Shown here: piece after piece, positions 25,811 to 58,223 of the stretch
Layout: every line of letters starts with the position of its first letter
How positions within the stretch are numbered: the stretch's first letter is position 1
Source: Naegleria gruberi
Taxonomy: Eukaryota
Length of the DNA: 64,000 nucleotides
Reading direction: 5' to 3' (one strand)
Assembly (NCBI GenBank): GCA_000004985.1
Contig: GG738912.1
Notes under the pieces: model-generated
What the model saw: the letters and a program-made list of their open reading frames with translations, nothing else
The model's database searches: none
Told to the model about the DNA's origin: nothing
Translations under genes and position numbers: made by a program

Positions 25811-26027
25811 AACTAATAAACATGAAGCAACATTTTCTTGCAACTCAACCTCTCATTACTAATTAAGCCAATTGGGGATTGATATTAATTTTCAAACAAT
25901 AACAAAAACTTCACTAGTACTTTACTGTTCTGATCCTTCTTACTCATGTTAATAAAAACCAAACTTTCAAACACTTTCTCTTCTCCACGATTTGTCCAAA
26001 ACCAAAATCATATGGCTCGCCACGTTA

Positions 26028-26098
26028 CCGTCTCGGGAGGAATCGAACCTCCGTCAATGGATTCAAAGTCCACTATGCTACCATTACACCACGAGACG
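26028..26098 (-). tRNA. tRNA-Gln, anticodon UUG.
   Basis: Minus-strand sequence CGTCTCG-TG-GTGT-AATGGTA-GCAT-A-GTGGA-CTTTGAA-TCCAT-TGAC-GGAGG-TTCGATT-CCTCC-CGAGACG-G. It has a perfect 7-bp acceptor stem, a GG-containing D-loop, a TTCGATT T-loop, and TTG in the anticodon loop. No intron. Confidence 0.8.
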
Positions 26099-26362
26099 AG
26101 CACATTAAGGTTGATTATAATTTAGTTATTACACTCATGACCATTTTCAATCTGTACTGTATTTGCGTTTCATGTCCCTTTGCTAAATTACATTGTATAA
26201 GAAAGGACTTGGAACATATTGCCATTTACAATTCAAAACGTAGAAACATTTTTTCTTGCTCTTCCTCATTACTTATTAAGGCAATAGAAGATTTGGCGCC
26301 TTTAAAATTCACACTTTCAAACAATTTTTCACAAACAAAAAAACAACAACACCACAACCAAT

Positions 26363-48414: not shown

Positions 48415-49302
48415 ATGGTAGCATCAAGCGAAGAAGAACACGATCAGGAAACATCAACAACAGCTGCATCACTTTCGATATCAAGTGTTGTTGGTGGAAT
48501 TAAAAATTTACTTGGTGAATTATTTGACAAGGCATCAACTGAAGAAATTGATCATGTAATTGCATTGACAGGATTTAATGCATTGAAAGCTTATACATGT
48601 TTATTGGAAAAGTATCCTCCACCTACTGTTCCGGTGTCAAATGTTGTGGAACAGCAGCCATCTGTCAGTAGTCAAAATATTCCCCTGACACAACAATATT
48701 TTCAACCATCACAATTACCAATTCAACATGTTCATCAAAATATTGATCCGATGATGATGAGCCAATTTATGATGCAAAATCAATTTATGCCTGTCGGATG
48801 TCAACAATTCAATCAAATTCCTCAATTTCAACAACAGCAACCTATGAATCAATCTACATGTATTTTGATGAATGATGGAATGGGAAGACAATATTATATG
48901 ATTTCTGATCCAAGTCAAATGTCAAGTAATAATTCAATGATGGTCAGCAGTGGAATTACAACTTCCAACCCAACTCCTCAACCATCTTCTACATCAATTA
49001 CAGCATCTACTTCAATTGCAACTCAAACATCTACTTCTAATACACCTGCCACATCAACGCAACCTGCCACCACTCATGTCACCATTGACAAGAAGAAGAA
49101 ATGTAAAGATTGGGACAAATGTACTCAAACTGGCGACCAAACACACGTTGAGAAATTCTTCCATCCATGCAGAAATGGATCTCATTGCAAGAATATTGAA
49201 AATGTCATTCATCAAAATAGATTTGTTCATCCTTGTAAAGATGGAAAGCAATGTAAGAAGAAGGATGATAATTTACACAATATTATGTTTACTCATAAAT
49301 AA
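48415..49302 (+). CDS. UBA/CUE-like N-terminal domain, a Q/M/S/T-rich low-complexity region, and three C-terminal PBZ-type zinc fingers.
   Basis: EEIDHVIALTGFNALKAYTCLLEKY is UBA-like. PBZ motifs CKDWDKCTQTGDQTHVEKFFH, CRNGSHCKNIENVIHQNRFVH and CKDGKQCKKKDDNLHNIMFTH. ATG at 48415 with aaaaATG context, only 33 bp from the divergent start at 48381. Confidence 0.55.
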   Translation: MVASSEEEHDQETSTTAASLSISSVVGGIKNLLGELFDKASTEEIDHVIALTGFNALKAYTCLLEKYPPPTVPVSNVVEQQPSVSSQNIPLTQQYFQPSQLPIQHVHQNIDPMMMSQFMMQNQFMPVGCQQFNQIPQFQQQQPMNQSTCILMNDGMGRQYYMISDPSQMSSNNSMMVSSGITTSNPTPQPSSTSITASTSIATQTSTSNTPATSTQPATTHVTIDKKKKCKDWDKCTQTGDQTHVEKFFHPCRNGSHCKNIENVIHQNRFVHPCKDGKQCKKKDDNLHNIMFTHK

Positions 49303-49369
49303 AATCAATGCTTTTGCTTGTCAAATTGTGAATTCACTTGTCAAATCATCGTTTTACCTGTCAAAAAAA

Positions 49370-51100
49370 ATGTTACCTTATCGTCCGCCTATTGTTCAGC
49401 CAATTCAACAGTTAATTCCGGTGTATTCCTACATGCCATCAACTTCATCATCGCCTGCCACTCCAACCAATGATCAATCACATCAATCAACTGCCACAAA
49501 TCAAAATAATCAGCAAAGTATTTGCAAATTTGGTCCAAATTGTCCCAACTATGACCAATGTACCTCTCTTCATCCATGCCGTTACGGAGAAGATTGCAGA
49601 AGAATTTCAAGAGTTGTTAACAAGACTCAGAAATTACAAGACATTGTTCACTGTTCCAAATGTTTCCATATTTGTAAATGGGGTGAGAAGTGCAAATATT
49701 TGAATGATGAAGAACATGTAAATATGTTTCTTCACACGTGTACTAAATCAAATTGTAAAGATGAAGTTCACAAAGAGAGATTTAGACATAAATGCAAATA
49801 TGGAAAAAATTGTCGTTCCTTAGATGGAAAATATGAAAATTGGGAACATTATGTCAAGTTTATTCATCCTAGGACTAATGGAGTTATGAGACATGTAGAA
49901 AAACAAATGTATTATCTATTTTCTGAAATATCTAATGATGAAAGCAATTCAAAAACTGCTCAATCTGACATTCCTGGTTTGACACTTGTAAAGAAGAGTA
50001 CACTCAAACCACAAGTGAAAGATAGAAAACGATCTGCCAAATGTGAAATTTCCACAATCGATGGTAAATCCACAGAGTATTATTTCATTGGGTATGAGAA
50101 GGGTGCTGGAAATTCGTCAACTTCAAAAGTCGTTTGTTTTAAAGAGACTGGAAAGGGAGTTTTTGAAGGTCATATTAAGGTAGTTGCAGAATCTAGTTGT
50201 GTATTTGATGGAAATGCAAAGATTGAACAACCTTGGTATCATTCAAAAGTTAATGTTTATAGAAATACTGTCATTAGTCAAGTATTTGATGAAATTTTGA
50301 AACAAGGTTTGAATGGAGTGAGCCCAAATGCTACCTATATCGATGTTATGAAATACATGATAGAACAGCATGATATTCCAATATTTATTGTTGGAGGAGC
50401 TGTCAGAGATGTCATTCGAGAAGTGATTGTTGAAAAAAAGACCAATGCCTTACAAATTATGAATAATATTAAGGATATTGATATTGGATTTGGTTGTGAT
50501 CCACAGACATTTCATGGACGCCTCACTCGAAAATATAAATCAGGTGTTCCAATTCCTGGACCTCGTGGACTAGTTCAAGTAGGAAGCTCCAATGGTTCTG
50601 ATCTATTCCTGGAAGGTAAAGCCATTAATGGTTTAAATAATGATAATAAGAGTGTGAAAGCACAAATTGCTCAATGTTATGGAACTAATCTGAGAGGAGA
50701 AAACATTTGTAGAGATTTCACATGTAATTCTCTTTGGTATGATCCAATCAATAAGTGCATTATTGATACTATTGGAAATGGGCAAGGAATTAAGGACGTA
50801 ATTTCAAAAAATTTACGAATTCCTGTAAAACCAAGAGATTGGGAATTTTGGGTTTCTGGCAATCCAACAAAGTTGATGAGATTTTACAAATTCCTTTTGA
50901 AGGGATATTCTGCAGATGCCAAAACTAAATCATTCATAATTGAACAAGTTAAAAGTGGTAAATTTATTAGTGATATGGAAATTAGAACTCAATACACAAA
51001 AGGAATTGGAAAAGCCAACAAAGCAAGGTTGGAGAATTTGTTGAGAAGTGATTTTGGTGATCAGTTTTACAATAATTATTTCGCTAATCATATTAAATAA
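49370..51100 (+). CDS. N-terminal PBZ-type zinc fingers fused to a class-II nucleotidyltransferase head domain (CCA-adding enzyme / poly(A)-polymerase PcnB-type).
   Basis: PBZ-like CKWGEKCKYLNDEEHVNMFLH and CKYGKNCRSLDGKYENWEHYVKFIH plus partial copies. NTase motifs FIVGGAVRDVI…DIDIGFG and RDFTCNSLWYD (class-II GGAVRD / RDFT[IV]NA). Start is taken at the ATG at 49370 (caaaaaaaATG) inside ORF 48950..51100. Confidence 0.6.
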   Translation: MLPYRPPIVQPIQQLIPVYSYMPSTSSSPATPTNDQSHQSTATNQNNQQSICKFGPNCPNYDQCTSLHPCRYGEDCRRISRVVNKTQKLQDIVHCSKCFHICKWGEKCKYLNDEEHVNMFLHTCTKSNCKDEVHKERFRHKCKYGKNCRSLDGKYENWEHYVKFIHPRTNGVMRHVEKQMYYLFSEISNDESNSKTAQSDIPGLTLVKKSTLKPQVKDRKRSAKCEISTIDGKSTEYYFIGYEKGAGNSSTSKVVCFKETGKGVFEGHIKVVAESSCVFDGNAKIEQPWYHSKVNVYRNTVISQVFDEILKQGLNGVSPNATYIDVMKYMIEQHDIPIFIVGGAVRDVIREVIVEKKTNALQIMNNIKDIDIGFGCDPQTFHGRLTRKYKSGVPIPGPRGLVQVGSSNGSDLFLEGKAINGLNNDNKSVKAQIAQCYGTNLRGENICRDFTCNSLWYDPINKCIIDTIGNGQGIKDVISKNLRIPVKPRDWEFWVSGNPTKLMRFYKFLLKGYSADAKTKSFIIEQVKSGKFISDMEIRTQYTKGIGKANKARLENLLRSDFGDQFYNNYFANHIK

Positions 51101-51142: not shown

Positions 51143-54100
51143 TTAATTTTTTCTATTCCTTTTTGGTTTAGAAACAAATGTTGGGACTCTTGTGAGTGAT
51201 TGTTTTTCATATTCAAACTCTATCGCGGAAAAATGGTTATATTGTTCACCAAAGTATCCTCTAGCTTCTTGGTTTCCATTTTTAGCAGCTTTCAACAACC
51301 AGAGTGTTCCTTGTGTTACATCTGTTTCACATAATAACTTTCCCAACGCCAACTCTGCATCTGAATTTTGTTGTTGAGCAGCTTTGAGCAACCATGAATG
51401 TGCAAGCTTAATGTTTTTCGGGACAACCTTATCAAGTCCATACATATAAATCATTCCAAGAGAATATTGTGCATTTGAATTTCCTTGATTAGCAGATTTG
51501 CAATACCACTCAAAAGCAAGTGAATAATTGGGTGTTTGGATGATATTAAGTGTATGATGATAAATGCAAGCTACTTCATATTGGGCTTCATTATTTCCAA
51601 GTTCAGCAGCTTTTTGATAGTAATCCCATGCTTTTTGATTATCCTTTAATTCTTTATAGAGATATCCTAAACGAAAGAGTGCTTCTGAATTCTTCACATC
51701 AGATTCTACTGCTTTTAGATACCATATAATGGCCTCATGTTTATCCAATAAAACACCATCACCCAGCTCATACATTTCTCCAATATCATATTGTGAATCA
51801 GAATCATTGAATTTTGTAGATGCTTCCAAATACAATTCGTGTGCTTCTTGATAATTACCCTTATTAAAAAACATTCTAGCCACATTTCTAAGAGCTTCAA
51901 TATGCGTACTTATTATTTCAGCTTCTCTAAAAATAAGTTTTCTATATTCTTCATCAATTTCCATTCTTTTTAAATTCATATTATTACCTAATATAATGTG
52001 TTCGCCAGAAACTAAGATATCTGTAGTAATAGTAGAAAGCTTTTGCTTGGATAAATCGAGTGCTTTTTGGTAAAGTTTAAATGCCAACAATTCATTACTT
52101 GATATTCCATTATCACCATCTTCAAGCATTGATGCAACATAATTAATGGCAGGAATATAGTTACTATCATATACTTTCTTAAATAGCTCAAAAGTTTCGG
52201 TATTGTTTGTTTTGGAATAATGAATAGCTTGTTGGAATAATTTCTCCCCTTTATCATTACTAACTTCCAAAATCATATCCAATTGACTTGCAGAATATAA
52301 AACTCCATATTCCACGCCTTCCATTTCTAAAGTATTAACGTTCATCTCATATTGGTTTCTTCTTTGAGCATCTTCTATAAAATAAGAAATCAATTTTCTT
52401 TTTTGAGAATCATTATTTAACACTAAAGAGTAGAGAGTGTAATTATTTTGCTCTGATTTCTCCATTTCTAAAATGTGAGAGGAGAAGTTTGGGATTAGAA
52501 TAAATCTGCTTTTGTCTTTGATTAAATGGCCCATTTTTAAACCAAATTGTGTGACAGATTTTAGAGAGGAATTTAGAGAAATAATATGCACCTCCTTGTC
52601 CTTAAGAAATAATACAAAAAATCTCCAAAAAAGGTCCATCATTTCCGAGACCATTTGAACTCGCTGTTTCTTTTTGTTAATCTGTTTGAAAATAGTTTGA
52701 AATAATTCCTTATAAATATCTTCCATCCTTTTTTGATAATCATTTGGTTTCGTGTTGTTTTTGAAAATATTTGCTATCTTGTACTTGATAAATGTGATTA
52801 AATGTTGTCTGTCATCTACACGTGCTATTTGAGAATTTGGGTCTTTAAACTCTAATTTTTGAGAAACTAACAATTGCATACTATCATATAATTTACCAAC
52901 TAGAGAAACACTGCGCCTCAATGGACCATGTTTGTTCTTGTGGTAGTGTGGAAAGCCAGGGAATTTTTCAAGTAGTTCTAAATCTTGTGCATTTACAGCA
53001 ACACTGTAGTTGCCTTTTTTGGGAGCGTCGATAGCCCTGTTGATGAGAGTACATAATCTTTCCATGTTATTCCAGTATTTTCGTGACCATTGATTTCCAT
53101 AAAAATCAGCAAACAAATGACGAATTCCAATCAAGTCTTTGAATATATCAGGATCGAATGATCGTGTCTCATTGTAGTCGTCATCAAAAGATCCTGGATC
53201 GAACTCTACTAATGATTCTACTAGTTCGTTATCCCAACATGCAAAATATTGATCTCCATCTAGATCAGATCCTGCAATCATATTTGTTATTGGTCTACTT
53301 CCTTTTGTAGGAAAAACAATAACATCGTAAAGAAAATTCAATTCAGGAATGTTGACTGCCTCTAATTTTCTCAGGTCACCACGATGTAAGCATGGCTCTT
53401 TAGTGACAATCACAGTATTCTCAATTACATTCTTCTTCTTTGGATCATTTAGAGAGGAAACTTGAATAAATATTTGACCTTCTTTGAGTACTCCGAAAGG
53501 ATCTGCTATTCCGTACAACCTTCTAGAACTGTAACAAGGAATTCTCAAGGAGAGTATTTGGTTTCTGTAGGGGCCTGTCAGGAAAGCAAGCTTTTTGCTT
53601 TTTAGAATGGAAAGAACGTTAAGAGAGGCATAGTCTCCTTGTTTTACGTACTGATCAAAAACCTTGTCAATGTCCGATTCTGAAATATAGTTTTTCATCA
53701 AATTTTCAATATGTTTACAGGCCTTTTGGTTTAGTATTTCGAATATCTTTCCTTGTTTTGTTTCATCTTCACACCCTTCTAAAATGTGCATAATTGTCGA
53801 ATTGATTCTAGCAAAATCACAGGGGCTTGAATAACCTACGATGCATAAATTATTAATTATATCATCATCAGTGTTTGGGTGTTCAATTTTCATCATTGAT
53901 TTCCTTAGCACTAAATGGTGACCATACACCTTTTCCGCATTTGGATGGATGTAAACCATGCCTTTGGCTCCTCTAAATCTTATTTGGTATGCACAGGGAA
54001 GATATTCATTGACTAGAAACTCTACTCCATCATTTTCTTCGTAGATACCATCTTCATCCATCGATTGTTTGCTCTGGTATTTCAATAAATTTTTAGATTT

Positions 54101-55297
54101 ACGAACAATTTCATAAACTTTCATAGCCAATTCAAGAGAAATAAATCCACATCCATCGGTGAAAAGTCCCTCATCATTAATAACAGTGTATTCTGAAACT
54201 CCAATAGTAGGAATAACAGGAGTATTAAATAAAGCCAGTCTTAAACTTTGCTTTAATTTGTTATTCTCAAAATAAAGATCCCTGTTCAATGTATCTGGAA
54301 TGGCCCATGTTTTTACATCATGTATTGATAGGGAAGAATTGTTTGGAAGTTTGGAAAGATCAGGACACATGTAAATAAATCGATAAGAATGCATTCCACT
54401 CGTATTTTGACACAGTTTCTGGAATGTAAATCCAGCAATATGTAAAGGCTCTTCTCTTTCTATATATGGCTCTATTAGCCTGAATGATTGGTTATCCATT
54501 AACACTCTGCTAATGTGCTTTTGGTCTTTCATTAATTTCAATGTTTCCTCATCGAATTTTCCTTCCTTGAATTGATTTAAATATTGTCTCAATAATACTA
54601 TATCTCCATGATCCTCTGATTTTGATTCCATAGCCACTTGATCCTTCAATTCAATATTATTTAAAATTTCAGGGTGCTCTCCAGTAGATTCAAGAATCAT
54701 TTGAGATTTGAAACCCATTCTCAAAAAGCTAAATCCAACATTCAACACTGTATTCACACCAAATTTTTGTCTAAACCTACTCTGTAGCCATCTATCTTGT
54801 TGTGAGCTGTTGAATCGAATGGCAAGAATGGGTGATATCTTTGGTTTGTAAAAACAATATAAGGTTGCTGTTCTAGTCCTAAACATTGTCTCTGATTCGT
54901 CCAATTCTTCTGTTGTTTGCTTACTTGGAGATGAAAGGTTTAAATTCTGATGATCCTCTTCCTTCTCTGTTATTGTTGCTAACAACCACCGATGAAGAGC
55001 CTCTAATCCTATCGGATAGGCAATCACTGCCATCCTAGAAACTCTCTTTAATATTTCATAGCGATCGACGAAGGACATTCCACAATACTTTTCCCCTCTC
55101 ACATTTTTGAAATTAAATTCCAAATATTTGGTACAATCATCAAAATTTCTAATGATCGGAATGGATTCAATCATGTAATAAGTTGCCAATAAATCCTTTA
55201 CGTAATTTTCATCTTGTCTATTCATAAACTTTAACTCTTCAAGTTGTTGAATCTTTTCAAGCTTTGAGAACCCAGAAACAAAAGACAATACGGACAT
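51143..55297 (-). CDS. Eukaryotic cellular RNA-dependent RNA polymerase (RDR family, about 930 aa) fused to a C-terminal array of Sel1-like (TPR-like) repeats, about 450 aa.
   Basis: RdRP catalytic motifs …IVTKEPCLHRGDLRKLEAV… and …AGSDLDGDQYFACWD…. The C-terminus has at least 6 Sel1-type units (e.g. NSNAQYSLGMIYMYGLDKVVPKNIKLAHSWLLKAAQQQNSDAELALGKLL, AIIWYLKAVESDVKNSEALFRLGYLY). Single 1384-codon ORF. Confidence 0.8.
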   Translation of the reverse strand: MSVLSFVSGFSKLEKIQQLEELKFMNRQDENYVKDLLATYYMIESIPIIRNFDDCTKYLEFNFKNVRGEKYCGMSFVDRYEILKRVSRMAVIAYPIGLEALHRWLLATITEKEEDHQNLNLSSPSKQTTEELDESETMFRTRTATLYCFYKPKISPILAIRFNSSQQDRWLQSRFRQKFGVNTVLNVGFSFLRMGFKSQMILESTGEHPEILNNIELKDQVAMESKSEDHGDIVLLRQYLNQFKEGKFDEETLKLMKDQKHISRVLMDNQSFRLIEPYIEREEPLHIAGFTFQKLCQNTSGMHSYRFIYMCPDLSKLPNNSSLSIHDVKTWAIPDTLNRDLYFENNKLKQSLRLALFNTPVIPTIGVSEYTVINDEGLFTDGCGFISLELAMKVYEIVRKSKNLLKYQSKQSMDEDGIYEENDGVEFLVNEYLPCAYQIRFRGAKGMVYIHPNAEKVYGHHLVLRKSMMKIEHPNTDDDIINNLCIVGYSSPCDFARINSTIMHILEGCEDETKQGKIFEILNQKACKHIENLMKNYISESDIDKVFDQYVKQGDYASLNVLSILKSKKLAFLTGPYRNQILSLRIPCYSSRRLYGIADPFGVLKEGQIFIQVSSLNDPKKKNVIENTVIVTKEPCLHRGDLRKLEAVNIPELNFLYDVIVFPTKGSRPITNMIAGSDLDGDQYFACWDNELVESLVEFDPGSFDDDYNETRSFDPDIFKDLIGIRHLFADFYGNQWSRKYWNNMERLCTLINRAIDAPKKGNYSVAVNAQDLELLEKFPGFPHYHKNKHGPLRRSVSLVGKLYDSMQLLVSQKLEFKDPNSQIARVDDRQHLITFIKYKIANIFKNNTKPNDYQKRMEDIYKELFQTIFKQINKKKQRVQMVSEMMDLFWRFFVLFLKDKEVHIISLNSSLKSVTQFGLKMGHLIKDKSRFILIPNFSSHILEMEKSEQNNYTLYSLVLNNDSQKRKLISYFIEDAQRRNQYEMNVNTLEMEGVEYGVLYSASQLDMILEVSNDKGEKLFQQAIHYSKTNNTETFELFKKVYDSNYIPAINYVASMLEDGDNGISSNELLAFKLYQKALDLSKQKLSTITTDILVSGEHIILGNNMNLKRMEIDEEYRKLIFREAEIISTHIEALRNVARMFFNKGNYQEAHELYLEASTKFNDSDSQYDIGEMYELGDGVLLDKHEAIIWYLKAVESDVKNSEALFRLGYLYKELKDNQKAWDYYQKAAELGNNEAQYEVACIYHHTLNIIQTPNYSLAFEWYCKSANQGNSNAQYSLGMIYMYGLDKVVPKNIKLAHSWLLKAAQQQNSDAELALGKLLCETDVTQGTLWLLKAAKNGNQEARGYFGEQYNHFSAIEFEYEKQSLTRVPTFVSKPKRNRKN

Positions 55298-55479: not shown

Positions 55480-56667
55480 TTACCACCAAAATACTATGTC
55501 AGTATTAGTCTGTTTGGAAAATTCATCACTAATTTTGTTTCCACTCACGTCTAATAATTGTAAATTCTTCATTTGTGTGATTGCCTTAAGTCCTTCATCC
55601 GTTATTTCATTGTTATTTACATATAAAATAGATAATTTCTCTAATTCACTAATGTAGTGTGCTCCTTCGTCTTGAATATCATTGAGTGAAATATCTAGTT
55701 CAGTTACGCGTTGCATTTTGCTGATAAATTTTGCTCCAGTTGGGCCAATTTCGCAATTATTGATCAAAAGTGTTGTCAATTGTTCAAGTTCACCGATTGA
55801 TTCTGCTCCTTGTTGTCCAATTAAATTGAAACCAACATTGATAAATGTCAAGCCTTTCAGTTGGCTAATTGAATTGGCTCCTTCCTCTCCAATTCCATTA
55901 CTACTAACATCTAGTTTGGTTAAATTCTTCATATGGCTTATTGAATACATTCCTTCATCACCAATGTTATTGCTGCCAATGAAAAGCTCTCTTAATTGAT
56001 CTAATTGTGCAATGAGTTCTGCTCCTTGTATTCCAAGATCATTATCATTAATTCTGAGAGAGGTTAAATTTCTCATCCCACTAACTACCTCCACATCCAA
56101 ACATTTGAGCTTAGTGTATGACATGTCCAGAATAGTCAATTGCTTCATATCTTTAATTTTACAAACTGATTCAAAACTAAATCTATTTCCAGAAACATTA
56201 AGTTCTTTCAATTGCTTCATTTGTGAAATTACACTGATTTCTCTATCAGAAATTTTACAAAACACAACATGAAGCCTCCTTAAATGCTCGCATCGTGCAA
56301 TGCTCTCTATTGCATCAATAGTTATTTCATTCTTGTTATTAATAACAAGAGAATTCAGCCTTTGTGCCATTTCAATTCCATTCCAAAATCTTTCATTCTG
56401 AATTCTTGCTCTGACTTCAATATTCGTAAAATATGATAACCATTCAAAATGTTCAATATTAGAATGTCTATTAATTATTACTATTGAAAGAATCGATCGT
56501 TCCCTAATTACATTCATCCATTGTTTAGAAATTAATAAACAATTCTTCAATAGGAATTTGTGATCCGCGTCTACAAAGGAGAGAATTTCAAAAATTACAT
56601 CATCAGAAAATAATTCTTGATGTTGTGATTTGATGCGGGTGGAATCTTCTACGTGATTGTTGAGCAT
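55480..56667 (-). CDS. F-box-like + RNI-type leucine-rich-repeat protein; the full-length paralog of the 10540 gene.
   Basis: The N-terminus …VIFEILSFVDADHKFLLKNCLLISKQWMNVIRERS is F-box-like. About 12 LRR units follow with an LxxLxIxxNxIGxEGAxxIS pattern. aaaaaaaATG context. Confidence 0.6.
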   Translation of the reverse strand: MLNNHVEDSTRIKSQHQELFSDDVIFEILSFVDADHKFLLKNCLLISKQWMNVIRERSILSIVIINRHSNIEHFEWLSYFTNIEVRARIQNERFWNGIEMAQRLNSLVINNKNEITIDAIESIARCEHLRRLHVVFCKISDREISVISQMKQLKELNVSGNRFSFESVCKIKDMKQLTILDMSYTKLKCLDVEVVSGMRNLTSLRINDNDLGIQGAELIAQLDQLRELFIGSNNIGDEGMYSISHMKNLTKLDVSSNGIGEEGANSISQLKGLTFINVGFNLIGQQGAESIGELEQLTTLLINNCEIGPTGAKFISKMQRVTELDISLNDIQDEGAHYISELEKLSILYVNNNEITDEGLKAITQMKNLQLLDVSGNKISDEFSKQTNTDIVFWW

Positions 56668-58005
56668 TTTTTTTTAATTTTTTTAAAAAAACATTAATGG
56701 AAATTTCAGAGACCAAATAACTTGAACGATCAAAGGCAGAATCTACAACTGAGAATGACTTGGTTTGAGAATCGTATCCAGTGGCCAAAACGAAATGTTC
56801 AGTCTTCTTTCCAGGTGGTTTGATTAGTTTCAAGATGACCATTCTTCCTTCACACAAGTTTCGAATAGTTACAGACATGTCAGTGGTTATCCCTGAGAAT
56901 TTCACACCAAATTGTTTGTTAATGGATGCCCAGATAAATAAGTTTCCATCCTTGAAACCACGATTTTTCTTCAACCATTCGTTCATTTCTTTTGGTGTCC
57001 ATTCGGTTCTTCCCAAACCTTTCAATCCAGAAGTAATGGCCGAAAGAAGACAACCAGCTTTACAAATTGTTGAACTTCCACTTCCTAATTTGAGAGATCC
57101 CCATCTTGTATCACATTGCTTAAAGACTGTGAATTGAGTATGAACATATCCTGGATAACATTCCTTTTTTGGAGGATTAGGTTTTATGGATATTTCTGGT
57201 TTTGGAGGAATTGGAATAGGTCTTGGAGATTCTTGTGGAATTGGAACAGGATTAGGTCTAGGAGAAGGTCTAGGATCTGGATGTGGTTTAGGAGAAGGAA
57301 CTGGTGGCACAGGTTTTGGTGATTCATGTGGCACTGGTGGAACAGGTTTTGGTGAAGGGATTGGATTTGGAGGAATTGGCTTTGGTGAAGGAATTGGAAT
57401 TGGTGGAGTTGGAGGATTCGGTTGGGGTGGATTTGGAATTGGTGGGACTGGATTTGGACTGGAGGAATTGGAATAGGTCTTGGTCCTCTACAACATGGTC
57501 TGGCACAGTTGTTTCCTTGTTGTGGAATTTTCAAATCCAAATTGACATTGACGTTTTGTCTACTTCCTCCATTGGAAGATGCTGAGCTGGAGGAAGAAGC
57601 AGAGGCAGATGCAGGTTGTTGGATAATGATTGTTTGAGGAGGTGGTATAATTGGTTTAATCATTGGAACATTGAGAATGATATTTTGAGGAGGGAAGAAA
57701 CACTTAGGTTTCTTGCAAGGTTTAGTTGGTTTTCTAATTGGTTTCTTACATGGTTTCTTTGGTTTCTTTCCAATCACATGGACAATAAATCCAGGACTCT
57801 TGTTATTTCTACACTTGAGTCTTCTAATATTGGATCTAATCTTTCGAGATTTGGACGAAATTCTTTCAGTGTCCAAAGTAATCACTTGGACACTTCTTCT
57901 TTCATGATTTGCTGAGTCGCTTGCCAACACAGCAGCACTAAAGAAACAAATTAACAATAGTGTGGCCAACAAGAAAGCTGTTTTCACAATCAAATTGCTG
58001 AACAT
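56603..58005 (-). CDS. Secreted protein with a signal peptide, a Lys/Pro-rich basic region, a Pro-rich linker, and a C-terminal papain-like (NlpC/P60 / CHAP / C39-like) cysteine-peptidase-fold domain. The reading frame is interrupted by a -1 frameshift near 57455-57475 in a CCA/CCT repeat.
   Basis: ORF 57184..58104 has signal peptide MFSNLIVKTAFLLATLLLICFFSAAVLA and KKPKKPCKKPIRKPTKPCKKPKC. ORF 56603..57486 in the -1 frame continues the Pro-rich linker (…PNPVPPIPNPPQPNPPTPPIPIP…) into a domain with candidate catalytic Cys (STICKAGCLLSA) and His (EHFVLATGYD). The two frames overlap 57184-57486 and no splice signal is present, so this is an assembly indel or a pseudogene. Confidence 0.45.
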
Positions 58006-58223
58006 TTTTTTGATGGTTTTGGTCAATTGGCTTGAATCTCCTAGAAGAAATAGGTTTCGAATGGTTGAGTAGTTTCTGATATCATCACAGAAACCTTGAC
58101 TCACTGATTCCTAGGTCTCTACAGGTATTGCAACTTTACAAAACATGTCAGGTCAAGCTTTGTTCCTGATAGTTCAGGGTTTATGCAAAAAAGGAAATGG
58201 AACTTTCGTTTATTCTTTGAAAA

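What the first reader, a model, noticed from the sequence alone, without database searches (positions are those of the whole stretch)
51143..55297. RNA-dependent RNA polymerase fused to a C-terminal Sel1-repeat array
The N-terminal ~930 aa carry the diagnostic cellular-RdRP motifs (DLDGDQY and the …TKEPCLHRGDLR… block). The C-terminal ~450 aa form a run of at least six Sel1-like repeats, which are protein-interaction scaffolds. RDR proteins I know of are either stand-alone or carry N-terminal helicase/RRM-type additions. A C-terminal Sel1 scaffold on an RdRP is unusual and may target the polymerase to a specific complex. The gene lies immediately downstream of the PBZ cluster.
Basis: partly seen in the sequence, partly recalled or inferred. 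Interest (0 to 1): 0.7.

Follow-up and report, generated by a model that had tools for sequence, protein, structure and literature searches.

The report
Naegleria RNA polymerase with Sel1 tail
This is a real single gene of the amoeba Naegleria gruberi that joins an RNA-copying enzyme of the gene-silencing type to a built-in protein-docking tail; the combination is rare and unstudied, but it is a lineage-specific variant of a well-known enzyme rather than a new kind of system.

Summary
Window 51143-55297 (-) is one uninterrupted 1384-codon ORF, 100% identical to a deposited Naegleria gruberi protein.

- **Polymerase part.** Residues 282-806 are a cellular RdRP (PF05183, E 1.8e-78). The catalytic DLDGD (678-682) and the TKEPCLHRGD block are intact.
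- **Tail.** Residues ~1014-1369 are a Sel1-like-repeat solenoid (PF08238, E 4.8e-36). The AlphaFold model has pLDDT 83, and its best structural matches are bacterial Sel1 proteins.
- **The fusion is not an artefact.** Both other N. gruberi RdRPs retrieved, and a relative on an independent metagenome contig, have Sel1 repeats at the same position. Two of these three add a TLDc domain.
- **The fusion is rare.** Only these 4 of 152 RdRP proteins, and 1 of 83 RdRP loci, have Sel1. A Naegleria lovaniensis relative lacks it. The Willaertia RdRP carries TPR plus zf-MYND instead.
- **Literature.** No searchable paper describes the architecture.

Most likely it is an active RNAi-type RdRP whose tail is a built-in adaptor for a partner protein, or for self-association. 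That is inferred, not shown. No transcript data could be reached. Pfam does not support the "PBZ cluster" label for the neighbour. Verdict: a new architectural variant of a known kind, of modest interest.

The parts
51143..55297 (-). Complete CDS: 1384 codons plus the stop codon (51143-51145). Single exon. It encodes the RdRP-Sel1 fusion protein.
   Evidence: The ORF is listed. It is 100% identical over 100% of its length to the NCBI 'predicted protein [Naegleria gruberi]' (P0001). There is no internal stop, GC3 is even along its length, and it contains no GTA[AT]GT 5'-splice-like hexamer.
54455..55297 (-). N-terminal region (residues 1-281) ahead of the Pfam RdRP match. It is conserved within the Naegleria clade. 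By position it may be the N-terminal part of the RdRP fold (inference).
   Evidence: Invariant columns are scattered through residues 47-264 in the 5-protein alignment. There is no separate Pfam family here.
52880..54454 (-). Cellular RdRP catalytic domain (residues 282-806).
   Evidence: PF05183 matches at E 1.8e-78, 265 bits against a cutoff of 23.8. The region aligns to solved RDR chains 7w82/7w84 (E 1e-22), RDR2 7eu0_M (E 6e-21) and QDE-1 2j7n (E 4e-17).
53369..53404 (-). TKEPCLHRGDLR block (residues 632-643), the conserved motif just upstream of the catalytic loop.
   Evidence: Position. T632, K633, E634, P635, H638, R639, G640, D641 and L642 are invariant in 11 relatives. The block aligns to TKNPCLHPGD of chain 7w82_A.
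53252..53266 (-). Catalytic loop DLDGD (residues 678-682), the metal-binding aspartates of cellular RdRPs.
   Evidence: Position. It is nearly invariant in 11 relatives and aligns to DLDGD of chain 7w82_A. A paper quoted (PMC4791657) states that DLDGD are the key residues and that the last Asp is required for activity.
52259..52879 (-). Post-catalytic helical region (residues 807-1013). It links the polymerase core to the repeat array. By position it may correspond to the C-terminal 'head' of solved RdRPs (inference only).
   Evidence: It aligns with the paralogs at 24-27% identity, with invariant F890, L908 and A977. No Pfam family matches. The AF2 model of this part has low confidence.
51191..52258 (-). 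Sel1-like-repeat (SLR/TPR-class) alpha-solenoid (residues ~1014-1369), about eight helical hairpins. A first block (~1024-1081) and the main array (1133-1355) are separated by a poorly predicted insert.
   Evidence: PF08238 matches at E 4.8e-36 with 5 stretches, plus TPR families. PDB sequence hits are Sel1 proteins: 8sxq at E 3e-41, 6ok3 at E 7e-34. A local Sel1 profile scores 170 bits over 1024-1355. The AF2 model has pLDDT 83 and pTM 0.77 and is all helix pairs. Foldseek's top hits are SLR proteins 4bwr, 6ok3, LceB 8sxq and LpnE 6deh, at E 3e-12 to 1e-10.
51962..52006 (-). Low-confidence insert inside the repeat region (residues ~1098-1112), poorly conserved.
   Evidence: pLDDT is below 50 for model residues 109-123. 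Identity to the paralogs in residues 1084-1132 is 8-17%. A GT...AG candidate here is 61 nt long, which is not a multiple of 3, so it cannot be an intron that keeps the Sel1 frame.
51146..51190 (-). Short basic C-terminal tail (residues 1370-1384, ...VSKPKRNRKN), predicted disordered.
   Evidence: Sequence. pLDDT is below 50 for model residues 381-395. Any localisation role is speculation.

Best explanation
The gene encodes one polypeptide made of a catalytically competent cellular (RNAi-type) RNA-dependent RNA polymerase followed by its own Sel1-like-repeat solenoid.

The polymerase part would copy single-stranded RNA templates into complementary RNA, giving dsRNA or small-RNA precursors. It would use the DLDGD aspartates to hold the catalytic metal, as in plant RDRs and Neurospora QDE-1.

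The C-terminal solenoid is a protein-binding surface attached in cis. It most likely tethers the polymerase to a partner protein or to another copy of itself. Candidate partners are a Dicer, an Argonaute, a helicase or a nucleotidyltransferase. In other eukaryotes that job is done by separate subunits of RdRP complexes.

The fusion arose once in the Naegleria gruberi lineage. It was then kept while the gene duplicated into three paralogs whose tails differ: a long canonical array here, a shorter array in P0002, and a short array plus TLDc in P0003. This suggests each paralog is wired to a different partner or pathway.

Shown: the single ORF, both domain identities, intact catalytic motifs, conservation of the fusion in paralogs and in a second organism, and its rarity elsewhere. 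Inferred: polymerase activity, a role in RNAi, and the adaptor function of the tail.
For: **Single ORF.**. The ORF is identical to the deposited N. gruberi model.

**RdRP identity and intact motifs.**

**Sel1 identity by sequence and by fold.**

**Same architecture in relatives.**
- N. gruberi P0002 and P0003 and metagenomic P0004 have Sel1 above the Pfam cutoff at the equivalent position.
- A local Sel1 profile confirms this at 81, 54 and 65 bits.
- P0004 is one stop-free ORF on an independent contig.
- The P0003/P0004 ortholog pair keeps the Sel1 segment gap-free at 59% identity, against 80% in the RdRP core and 54% in the N-terminus. This argues for selection on the tail.

**Single origin.** In an NJ tree the Sel1-bearing proteins group together; window+P0002 has 82% bootstrap support and P0003+P0004 has 100%.

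**Rarity.**
- Only 4 of 152 RdRP proteins have Sel1.
- Only 1 of 83 loci has it.
- None of the 40 next-closest representatives shows Sel1 among the listed families.
- There are no viral relatives.

**Related case.** Related heterolobosean RdRPs (Willaertia magna P0095 and metagenomic P0097) carry another helical-repeat/interaction module, TPR plus zf-MYND, C-terminal to the RdRP.
Against: - No transcript, proteomic or functional data were reachable.
- The N. lovaniensis relative P0093 ends just before the Sel1 position, and no Sel1 ORF follows it. P0005 and P0092 also lack Sel1. The tail is therefore dispensable for RdRPs of this clade in general.
- Bootstrap support for one clade of all Sel1-bearing copies is weak (36%). 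One gain is the parsimonious reading but is not proven.
- The repeat sequence shows no near relative that would hint at a partner or an origin (best 30-35% identity).
- Nothing in the data names the ligand of the solenoid.
- The model of the whole protein was too poor (pLDDT 42) to show whether the tail packs on the polymerase.
Confidence: 0.6

Rival explanations
1. The tail regulates the enzyme itself rather than recruiting a partner. The Sel1 solenoid would fold back on the polymerase, acting as an autoinhibitor or a template-channel lid, or it would mediate homodimerisation.
For: - The tail directly follows the post-catalytic helical region.
- From my own knowledge, not tested here: QDE-1 is a homodimer in its crystal structure, and eEF2 kinase uses C-terminal SEL1-like repeats that contact its own catalytic domain as well as its substrate.
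- Nothing in the data distinguishes intra-molecular from inter-molecular binding.
Against: - The paralog tails differ strongly in length and sequence while the cores stay at 48% identity. That fits divergent external partners better than a conserved internal contact.
- Sel1-less clade members exist.
- The full-length model was uninformative.
Confidence: 0.2
2. Gene-model artefact. The RdRP and the Sel1 protein are two adjacent genes, or the ORF contains an unrecognised intron or stop, and they only appear fused.
For: - No transcript evidence was reachable.
- The linker (residues 807-1013) and the insert (1084-1132) are weakly conserved.
- N. gruberi genes are tightly packed; for example, only 42 nt separate this gene from its neighbour.
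Against: - There is no stop in 1384 codons (P about 1e-37), nor in the 327-codon junction (P about 1e-9).
- The same order and frame continuity occur in P0002, P0003 and the independent metagenome ORF P0004/L001.
- The only GT..AG candidate in the insert is 61 nt and would break the frame, and there are no GTA[AT]GT sites in the CDS.
- GC3 is uniform along the ORF.
Confidence: 0.04
3. The tail is a recent, largely neutral add-on, acquired by exon shuffling or by transfer of a bacterial or giant-virus Sel1 gene, with no specific role.
For: - Sel1 proteins are very common in bacteria, and the best matches to the tail are anonymous metagenomic Sel1 proteins.
- Some clade members do without the tail.
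Against: - No close donor exists (at most 35% identity).
- There is no DNA-level tandem repeat, so the repeats are old.
- The tail is kept in three diverged paralogs and across a species pair at 59% identity without gaps.
- The model is a well-formed solenoid.
Confidence: 0.08

Closest known systems
N. gruberi paralogs P0002 (1235 aa, named 'RNA dependent RNA polymerase' at NCBI) and P0003 (1745 aa), with the metagenomic ortholog P0004
   Same: They have the same clade-specific N-terminus, RdRP core (48% identity) and post-catalytic region, and Sel1 repeats at the same relative position.
   Different: The window protein has by far the longest and most canonical array: 170 bits against 54-81 with the local profile, and Pfam 122 against about 36 bits. 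P0003 and P0004 add an N-terminal extension and a C-terminal TLDc domain.
Plant RDRs (solved chains 7w82/7w84; Arabidopsis RDR2 in 7eu0/7roz)
   Same: They share the PF05183 core. The TKxPCLHxGD and DLDGD motifs align residue for residue.
   Different: From my own knowledge, plant RDRs have an N-terminal RRM-type domain and no C-terminal repeat array, and RDR2 is coupled to its partner Pol IV through the polymerase body. The alignment here covers only about residues 432-731.
Neurospora QDE-1 (2j7n, 5fsw)
   Same: The catalytic loop region matches at E 4e-17.
   Different: The match is weaker and shorter (residues 586-723) than to plant RDRs. QDE-1 has no Sel1/TPR tail.
Willaertia magna RdRP KAL9647075.1 (P0095) and metagenomic P0097
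   Same: They are heterolobosean-type RdRPs and the next-closest group by score. They also carry a helical-repeat interaction module about 400 residues after the RdRP domain.
   Different: Their repeats score as classical TPR, not Sel1 (no hit with the Sel1 profile), and a zf-MYND finger follows. The proteins are about 1870-1900 aa. Whether the TPR and the Sel1 arrays share an origin cannot be decided, because all TPR-class repeats resemble each other.
RdRP complexes with separate accessory subunits: S. pombe RDRC (Rdp1-Hrr1-Cid12), Tetrahymena Rdr1 complexes, C. elegans RRF-3 with GTSF-1
   Same: The functional analogy is an RdRP that must be physically coupled to partners. The RRF-3/GTSF-1 coupling is described in the abstract of PMC13650160. 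The other complexes are from my own knowledge.
   Different: In those systems the coupling surfaces are on separate proteins or on an N-terminal domain of the RdRP. Here a generic docking solenoid is part of the polymerase chain. No partner is known.
Sel1-like-repeat scaffolds: bacterial LpnE, LceB, HcpC and E. coli c5321; eukaryotic SEL1L/Hrd3
   Same: They share the fold and the repeat signature.
   Different: Those are stand-alone, secreted or membrane-anchored adaptors. This array is the C-terminal domain of a nucleic-acid polymerase. Identity to them is only 22-29%.

Membership tests
Cellular (eukaryotic) RNA-dependent RNA polymerase, Pfam PF05183 | Sequence match to the family profile above the curated threshold | tested here: met
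   265.2 bits against a cutoff of 23.8, E 1.8e-78, covering profile positions 63-581 of 582.
Cellular (eukaryotic) RNA-dependent RNA polymerase, Pfam PF05183 | Catalytic DxDGD loop with all aspartates present | tested here: met
   DLDGD is at residues 678-682. It aligns to DLDGD of solved chain 7w82_A and is nearly invariant in 11 relatives.
Cellular (eukaryotic) RNA-dependent RNA polymerase, Pfam PF05183 | Double-psi beta-barrel catalytic fold | tested here: inconclusive
   The AF2 model of residues 185-1384, built from a 5-sequence alignment, had pLDDT 42. The fold is therefore inferred from sequence homology to solved RdRPs only.
Cellular (eukaryotic) RNA-dependent RNA polymerase, Pfam PF05183 | RNA-templated RNA synthesis and a role in small-RNA silencing | not testable with these tools
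   This needs an enzyme assay and small-RNA sequencing in N. gruberi.
Sel1-like repeat (SLR) proteins, Pfam PF08238 | Repeat profile match above the curated threshold, in several tandem copies | tested here: met
   122.3 bits against a cutoff of 30.7, with 5 stretches. A local two-repeat profile built from 601 segments scores 170 bits, with 5 domains spanning 1024-1355.
Sel1-like repeat (SLR) proteins, Pfam PF08238 | Alpha/alpha-hairpin superhelical fold | tested here: met
   The AF2 model has pLDDT 83 and pTM 0.77, with 18 helices arranged as hairpins. Foldseek's top 12 PDB chains are all Sel1/SLR proteins, at E 3e-12 to 6e-9.
Sel1-like repeat (SLR) proteins, Pfam PF08238 | Binds a protein or peptide ligand | not testable with these tools
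   No interaction data exist, and the partner is unknown.
PBZ zinc finger (zf-CCHH, PF10283), claimed for the neighbouring gene | Profile match above the curated threshold | tested here: not met
   E 5.2, 7.6 bits against a cutoff of 22.7. The fingers read C-x5-C-x7-H-x5-H, so they are PBZ-like in spacing at best. The only significant family in that gene is the PolyA_pol head domain PF01743.

The most novel reading that the evidence does not exclude
In heterolobosean amoebae the RdRP has absorbed its own scaffold. TPR-class arrays (Sel1 in N. gruberi, TPR+MYND in Willaertia) built into the polymerase would replace the separate adaptor subunits of RdRP complexes in fungi, ciliates and nematodes. 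The three N. gruberi paralogs would use different tails (long Sel1; short Sel1; Sel1+TLDc) to feed three distinct small-RNA pathways. If so, the tail sequence would be a direct handle for finding the otherwise unknown RNAi partners in this deep-branching eukaryote lineage.
Probability: 0.3. Interest if true: 0.5.

Novelty: new variant of a known kind. Interest (0 to 1): 0.33.

Why it matters
Cellular RdRPs rarely act alone, and how each is coupled to its template and to Dicer or Argonaute is a recurring question. A polymerase that carries a generic docking solenoid in cis gives a simple experimental handle: pull down with the tail, or delete it. This would apply in a free-living relative of the pathogen N. 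fowleri, where RNAi is almost unstudied.

The result also adds a Sel1/TPR class to the list of RdRP accessory domains, alongside helicase, RRM and MYND. The significance is limited. Both domains are ordinary, the protein is already in public databases with both Pfam domains precomputed, and the function of the tail is only inferred.

Tried and rejected
- **Transcript evidence.** An exact-product lookup found nothing on record for P0001 or P0002, so the single-transcript test could not be run.
- **Full-length structure.** AF2 on residues 185-1384 with a 5-sequence alignment gave pLDDT 42. It was unusable and was not taken to a fold search.
- **Third large homolog search.** The clade profile returned only 7 proteins because of the candidate cap, and it did not add N. 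lovaniensis or Willaertia. The P0093 lookup nevertheless worked.
- **Hidden intron.** I looked for one in the weakly conserved insert. The only GT..AG candidate is 61 nt (frame-breaking), and no GTA[AT]GT occurs in the CDS. Rejected.
- **Bacterial promoter/terminator scan.** It found 27 sites against 21.6±4.5 expected. There is no enrichment, and the scan is irrelevant for a eukaryote.
- **DNA tandem repeats in the Sel1 region.** None, so there was no recent repeat expansion.
- **Viral contigs.** No relatives. A giant-virus origin or counterpart is not supported.
- **JGI metagenome scan.** It returned 80 RdRP loci, all at or below 48% best-segment identity and most at 27-36%. None carries Sel1.
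- **Donor of the tail.** The best matches are 30-35% identical anonymous Sel1 proteins, so no origin can be named.
- **Functional link to the convergent PolyA_pol-head neighbour**, by analogy with the nucleotidyltransferases of RdRP complexes. No such neighbour is found at the P0004 or N. lovaniensis loci, and it belongs to a different nucleotidyltransferase family. I treat it as coincidence.
- **Literature.** Six searches found no paper that links an RdRP to Sel1 repeats or describes this protein's architecture. The N. gruberi genome paper and the Burroughs-Ando-Aravind RNAi review (PMC4066877) are not held, so an earlier mention there cannot be excluded.
- **Phylogeny.** NJ bootstrap values for the deeper nodes were low (16-36%). 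Only the sister pairs are reliable.

Full report

Yes. The ORF listing finds an ORF at 51143..55297 on the minus strand, 1384 aa, starting with ATG. It is the longest stop-free stretch in the 64-kb window. The window is AT-rich (about 33% G+C) and its stop-trinucleotide frequency is 0.059. The chance of 1384 open codons is therefore about 1e-37. The chance that the 327 codons between the end of the Pfam RdRP match and the main Sel1 array stay open is about 1e-9.

An in-frame stop lies 5 codons upstream of the ATG, so the N-terminus is well defined.

**2. What organism and gene?**

The protein is 100% identical over its full length to a deposited 'predicted protein [Naegleria gruberi]', which UniRef names RNA-dependent RNA polymerase. 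Its precomputed Pfam domains are RdRP, Sel1 and two TPR-type families (P0001). The window is therefore N. gruberi nuclear DNA. The public gene model is the same single exon.

**3. Domain identities**

*Polymerase.* Pfam gives PF05183 (RdRP) at residues 282-806, E 1.8e-78, 265 bits against a cutoff of 23.8. Against solved structures, the core matches RDR chains 7w82/7w84 (E 1e-22), Arabidopsis RDR2 (E 6e-21) and, more weakly and over a shorter span, Neurospora QDE-1 (E 4e-17). TKEPCLHRGD aligns to TKNPCLHPGD, and GSDLDGD to GGDLDGD. PMC4791657 states that DLDGD are the key residues and that the last Asp is needed for catalysis. Here all are present, and they are nearly invariant in 11 relatives.

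*Tail.* Pfam gives PF08238 (Sel1) at E 4.8e-36 with 5 stretches, plus several TPR families at 1134-1245. PDB sequence hits are Sel1 proteins, for example LceB 8sxq at E 3e-41. An AlphaFold2 model of residues 990-1384, built on an 88-sequence alignment, has pLDDT 83 and pTM 0.77. It is a run of helix pairs from about residue 1014 to 1369, with one poorly predicted insert at about 1098-1112. Foldseek against the PDB puts Sel1-like-repeat proteins first: 4bwr, 6ok3, 8sxq, 6deh, 6onw, 6ork and HcpC 1ouv, at E 3e-12 to 6e-9.

My manual reading of the sequence and a local profile give one block at about 1024-1081 and a main array at 1133-1355. That is about eight hairpins in all. The repeats are old, because there is no DNA-level tandem repeat.

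Residues 807-1013 are neither Pfam-RdRP nor Sel1. They are helical and align with the paralogs. By position they may correspond to the C-terminal 'head' of solved RdRPs, but that is inference only.

**4. Is the fusion genuine?**

Four lines of evidence say it is.

- The ORF is continuous, GC3 is even across it, and it has no splice-site-like hexamers. The one GT..AG candidate in the weakly conserved insert is 61 nt and would destroy the Sel1 frame.
- The two other N. gruberi RdRPs retrieved, P0002 (1235 aa) and P0003 (1745 aa), also have Sel1 above the Pfam cutoff about 240 residues after the RdRP domain. A more sensitive local Sel1 profile, built from 601 repeat segments of unrelated Sel1 proteins, confirms this at 81 and 54 bits.
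- P0004 is an ortholog of P0003 from an unrelated metagenome assembly (ERZ27315067). It is a single stop-free 1811-codon ORF with the same RdRP-Sel1-TLDc order.
- Between P0003 and P0004 the Sel1 segment aligns without gaps at 59% identity. The RdRP core is at 80% and the N-terminus at 54%. This is what a functional domain would show.

I could not obtain transcript evidence, because exact-product lookups found nothing on record. The artefact rival is therefore not formally excluded. I rate it at about 4%.

**5. How widespread is it?**

An exhaustive HMMER search with residues 1-1100 against 1.84 billion cluster representatives found 3194 RdRP relatives, and the best 150 were returned.

- A tight clade (above 250 bits) holds the three N. 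gruberi proteins, metagenomic P0005, P0092 and P0094, and N. lovaniensis C9374_011878 (P0093).
- Next come Willaertia magna P0095, N. lovaniensis 011877, metagenomic P0097 and Vermamoeba.
- With the local Sel1 profile, only P0001-P0004 of 152 RdRP proteins score.
- Of 83 loci (80 metagenomic RdRP loci with flanks, plus 3 others), only the P0004 locus does.
- The Pfam survey of the 40 next-closest representatives shows SF1 helicase in 8, zf-MYND in 3, TPR in 2 and RRM in 1. Sel1 is not among the 25 of 33 families that the output listed.
- N. lovaniensis P0093 ends just before the Sel1 position, and the 1.2 kb downstream holds no Sel1 ORF.
- There are no relatives in the viral collection.
- Willaertia P0095 and P0097 carry classical TPR plus a zf-MYND finger about 400 residues after the RdRP domain. 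A helical-repeat interaction module behind the polymerase thus recurs in heterolobosean RdRPs, although homology between the TPR and the Sel1 tails cannot be decided.

An NJ tree groups the Sel1-bearing proteins. Window+P0002 has 82% support and P0003+P0004 has 100%, but the joint node has only 36%. A single gain followed by duplication is the parsimonious but unproven history.

**6. How it most likely works**

Steps that rest on homology: the N-terminal ~1000 residues form a cellular RdRP that uses the DLDGD aspartates to synthesise RNA on an RNA template, producing dsRNA or small-RNA precursors.

Steps that are inferred: the C-terminal Sel1 solenoid is a protein-binding surface. As part of the same chain, it would tether the polymerase to a partner or to a second copy of itself. 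Elsewhere such coupling is provided by separate subunits or other domains. One example is nematode RRF-3 binding GTSF-1 through an N-terminal domain (PMC13650160 abstract). Others, from my own knowledge, are fission-yeast RDRC and the Tetrahymena Rdr1 complexes.

The paralog tails differ a great deal while the cores stay 48% identical, and one paralog adds TLDc. This fits paralog-specific partners. The main rival is an intramolecular regulatory or dimerisation role, which I rate at about 0.2. A neutral add-on (about 0.08) and a gene-model artefact (about 0.04) are unlikely.

**7. Comparison with the known, and novelty**

Membership in PF05183 and in the Sel1-like-repeat family is met on every feature I could test. 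The DPBB fold itself was not confirmed by modelling, and activity and ligand binding are untestable here.

The combination is visible in public databases. However, six full-text searches found no paper that links an RdRP to Sel1 repeats or describes this protein's architecture. Two papers that might mention it are not held.

I therefore class it as a new architectural variant of a known kind. It is lineage-restricted and probably functional, but it is built from two ordinary domains and has no demonstrated mechanism. Interest is about 0.33.

**8.

- The repeat region starts at about residue 1014, not 930.
- The fusion is a family trait of N. gruberi RdRPs, not a singleton.
- The neighbouring gene (48415-51100, +) is convergent with this gene, with stop codons 42 nt apart. 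Its only significant Pfam family is the PolyA_pol head domain. PBZ/zf-CCHH is not supported (E 5.2), although the fingers have PBZ-like C-x5-C-x7-H-x5-H spacing.

Noticed in passing
window 48415-51100 (+): The convergent neighbour ends 42 nt from the RdRP stop codon, so the 3' ends of the two transcripts probably overlap. It has repeated C-x5-C-x7-H-x5-H fingers followed by a PolyA_pol head (CCA-adding / poly(A) polymerase type) domain, PF01743, E 2.9e-8. Pfam PBZ is not significant. It is read as two overlapping ORFs in different frames (48415-49302 and 48950-51100), which suggests an intron or a frame change. A nucleotidyltransferase beside an RdRP is suggestive, but the linkage is not conserved at the P0004 or N. 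lovaniensis loci.
   Followed up: partly
L003 2762-9357 (N. lovaniensis PYSW02000051.1): Two RdRP genes sit head-to-head only 42 bp apart (C9374_011877 on the minus strand, C9374_011878 on the plus strand). Neither has Sel1, and 011877 has a much weaker RdRP match (92 bits).
   Followed up: partly
P0095 (Willaertia magna KAL9647075.1) and P0097 (metagenome): These are ~1870-1900 aa RdRPs with C-terminal TPR repeats followed by a zf-MYND finger. This is a second kind of interaction module fused behind a heterolobosean RdRP.
   Followed up: partly
P0003 (N. gruberi) and P0004 / L001 6001-11436: This paralog lineage adds a TLDc domain (PF07534) after the Sel1 repeats and a long N-terminal extension. 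A TLDc domain on an RdRP is itself unexplained.
   Followed up: no
window 55480-56667 (-): The gene immediately upstream on the same strand is an LRR_6-type leucine-rich-repeat protein with a weak N-terminal F-box match (E 0.009, 16.3 bits against a cutoff of 20.5). In L002, an LRR ORF also directly follows the Sel1-less RdRP P0005. This may be coincidence, because such LRR genes may simply be common in these genomes.
   Followed up: no
window 56603-57334 (-) and 57184-58104 (-): A Peptidase_C39_2-like domain lies behind a proline-rich N-terminus. Overlapping ORFs with low-complexity P/Q-rich and G-rich translations on both strands lie around 57184-58104.
   Followed up: no
window 26027-26099 (-): tRNA-Gln (anticodon TTG), the only tRNA in the window.
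   Followed up: no
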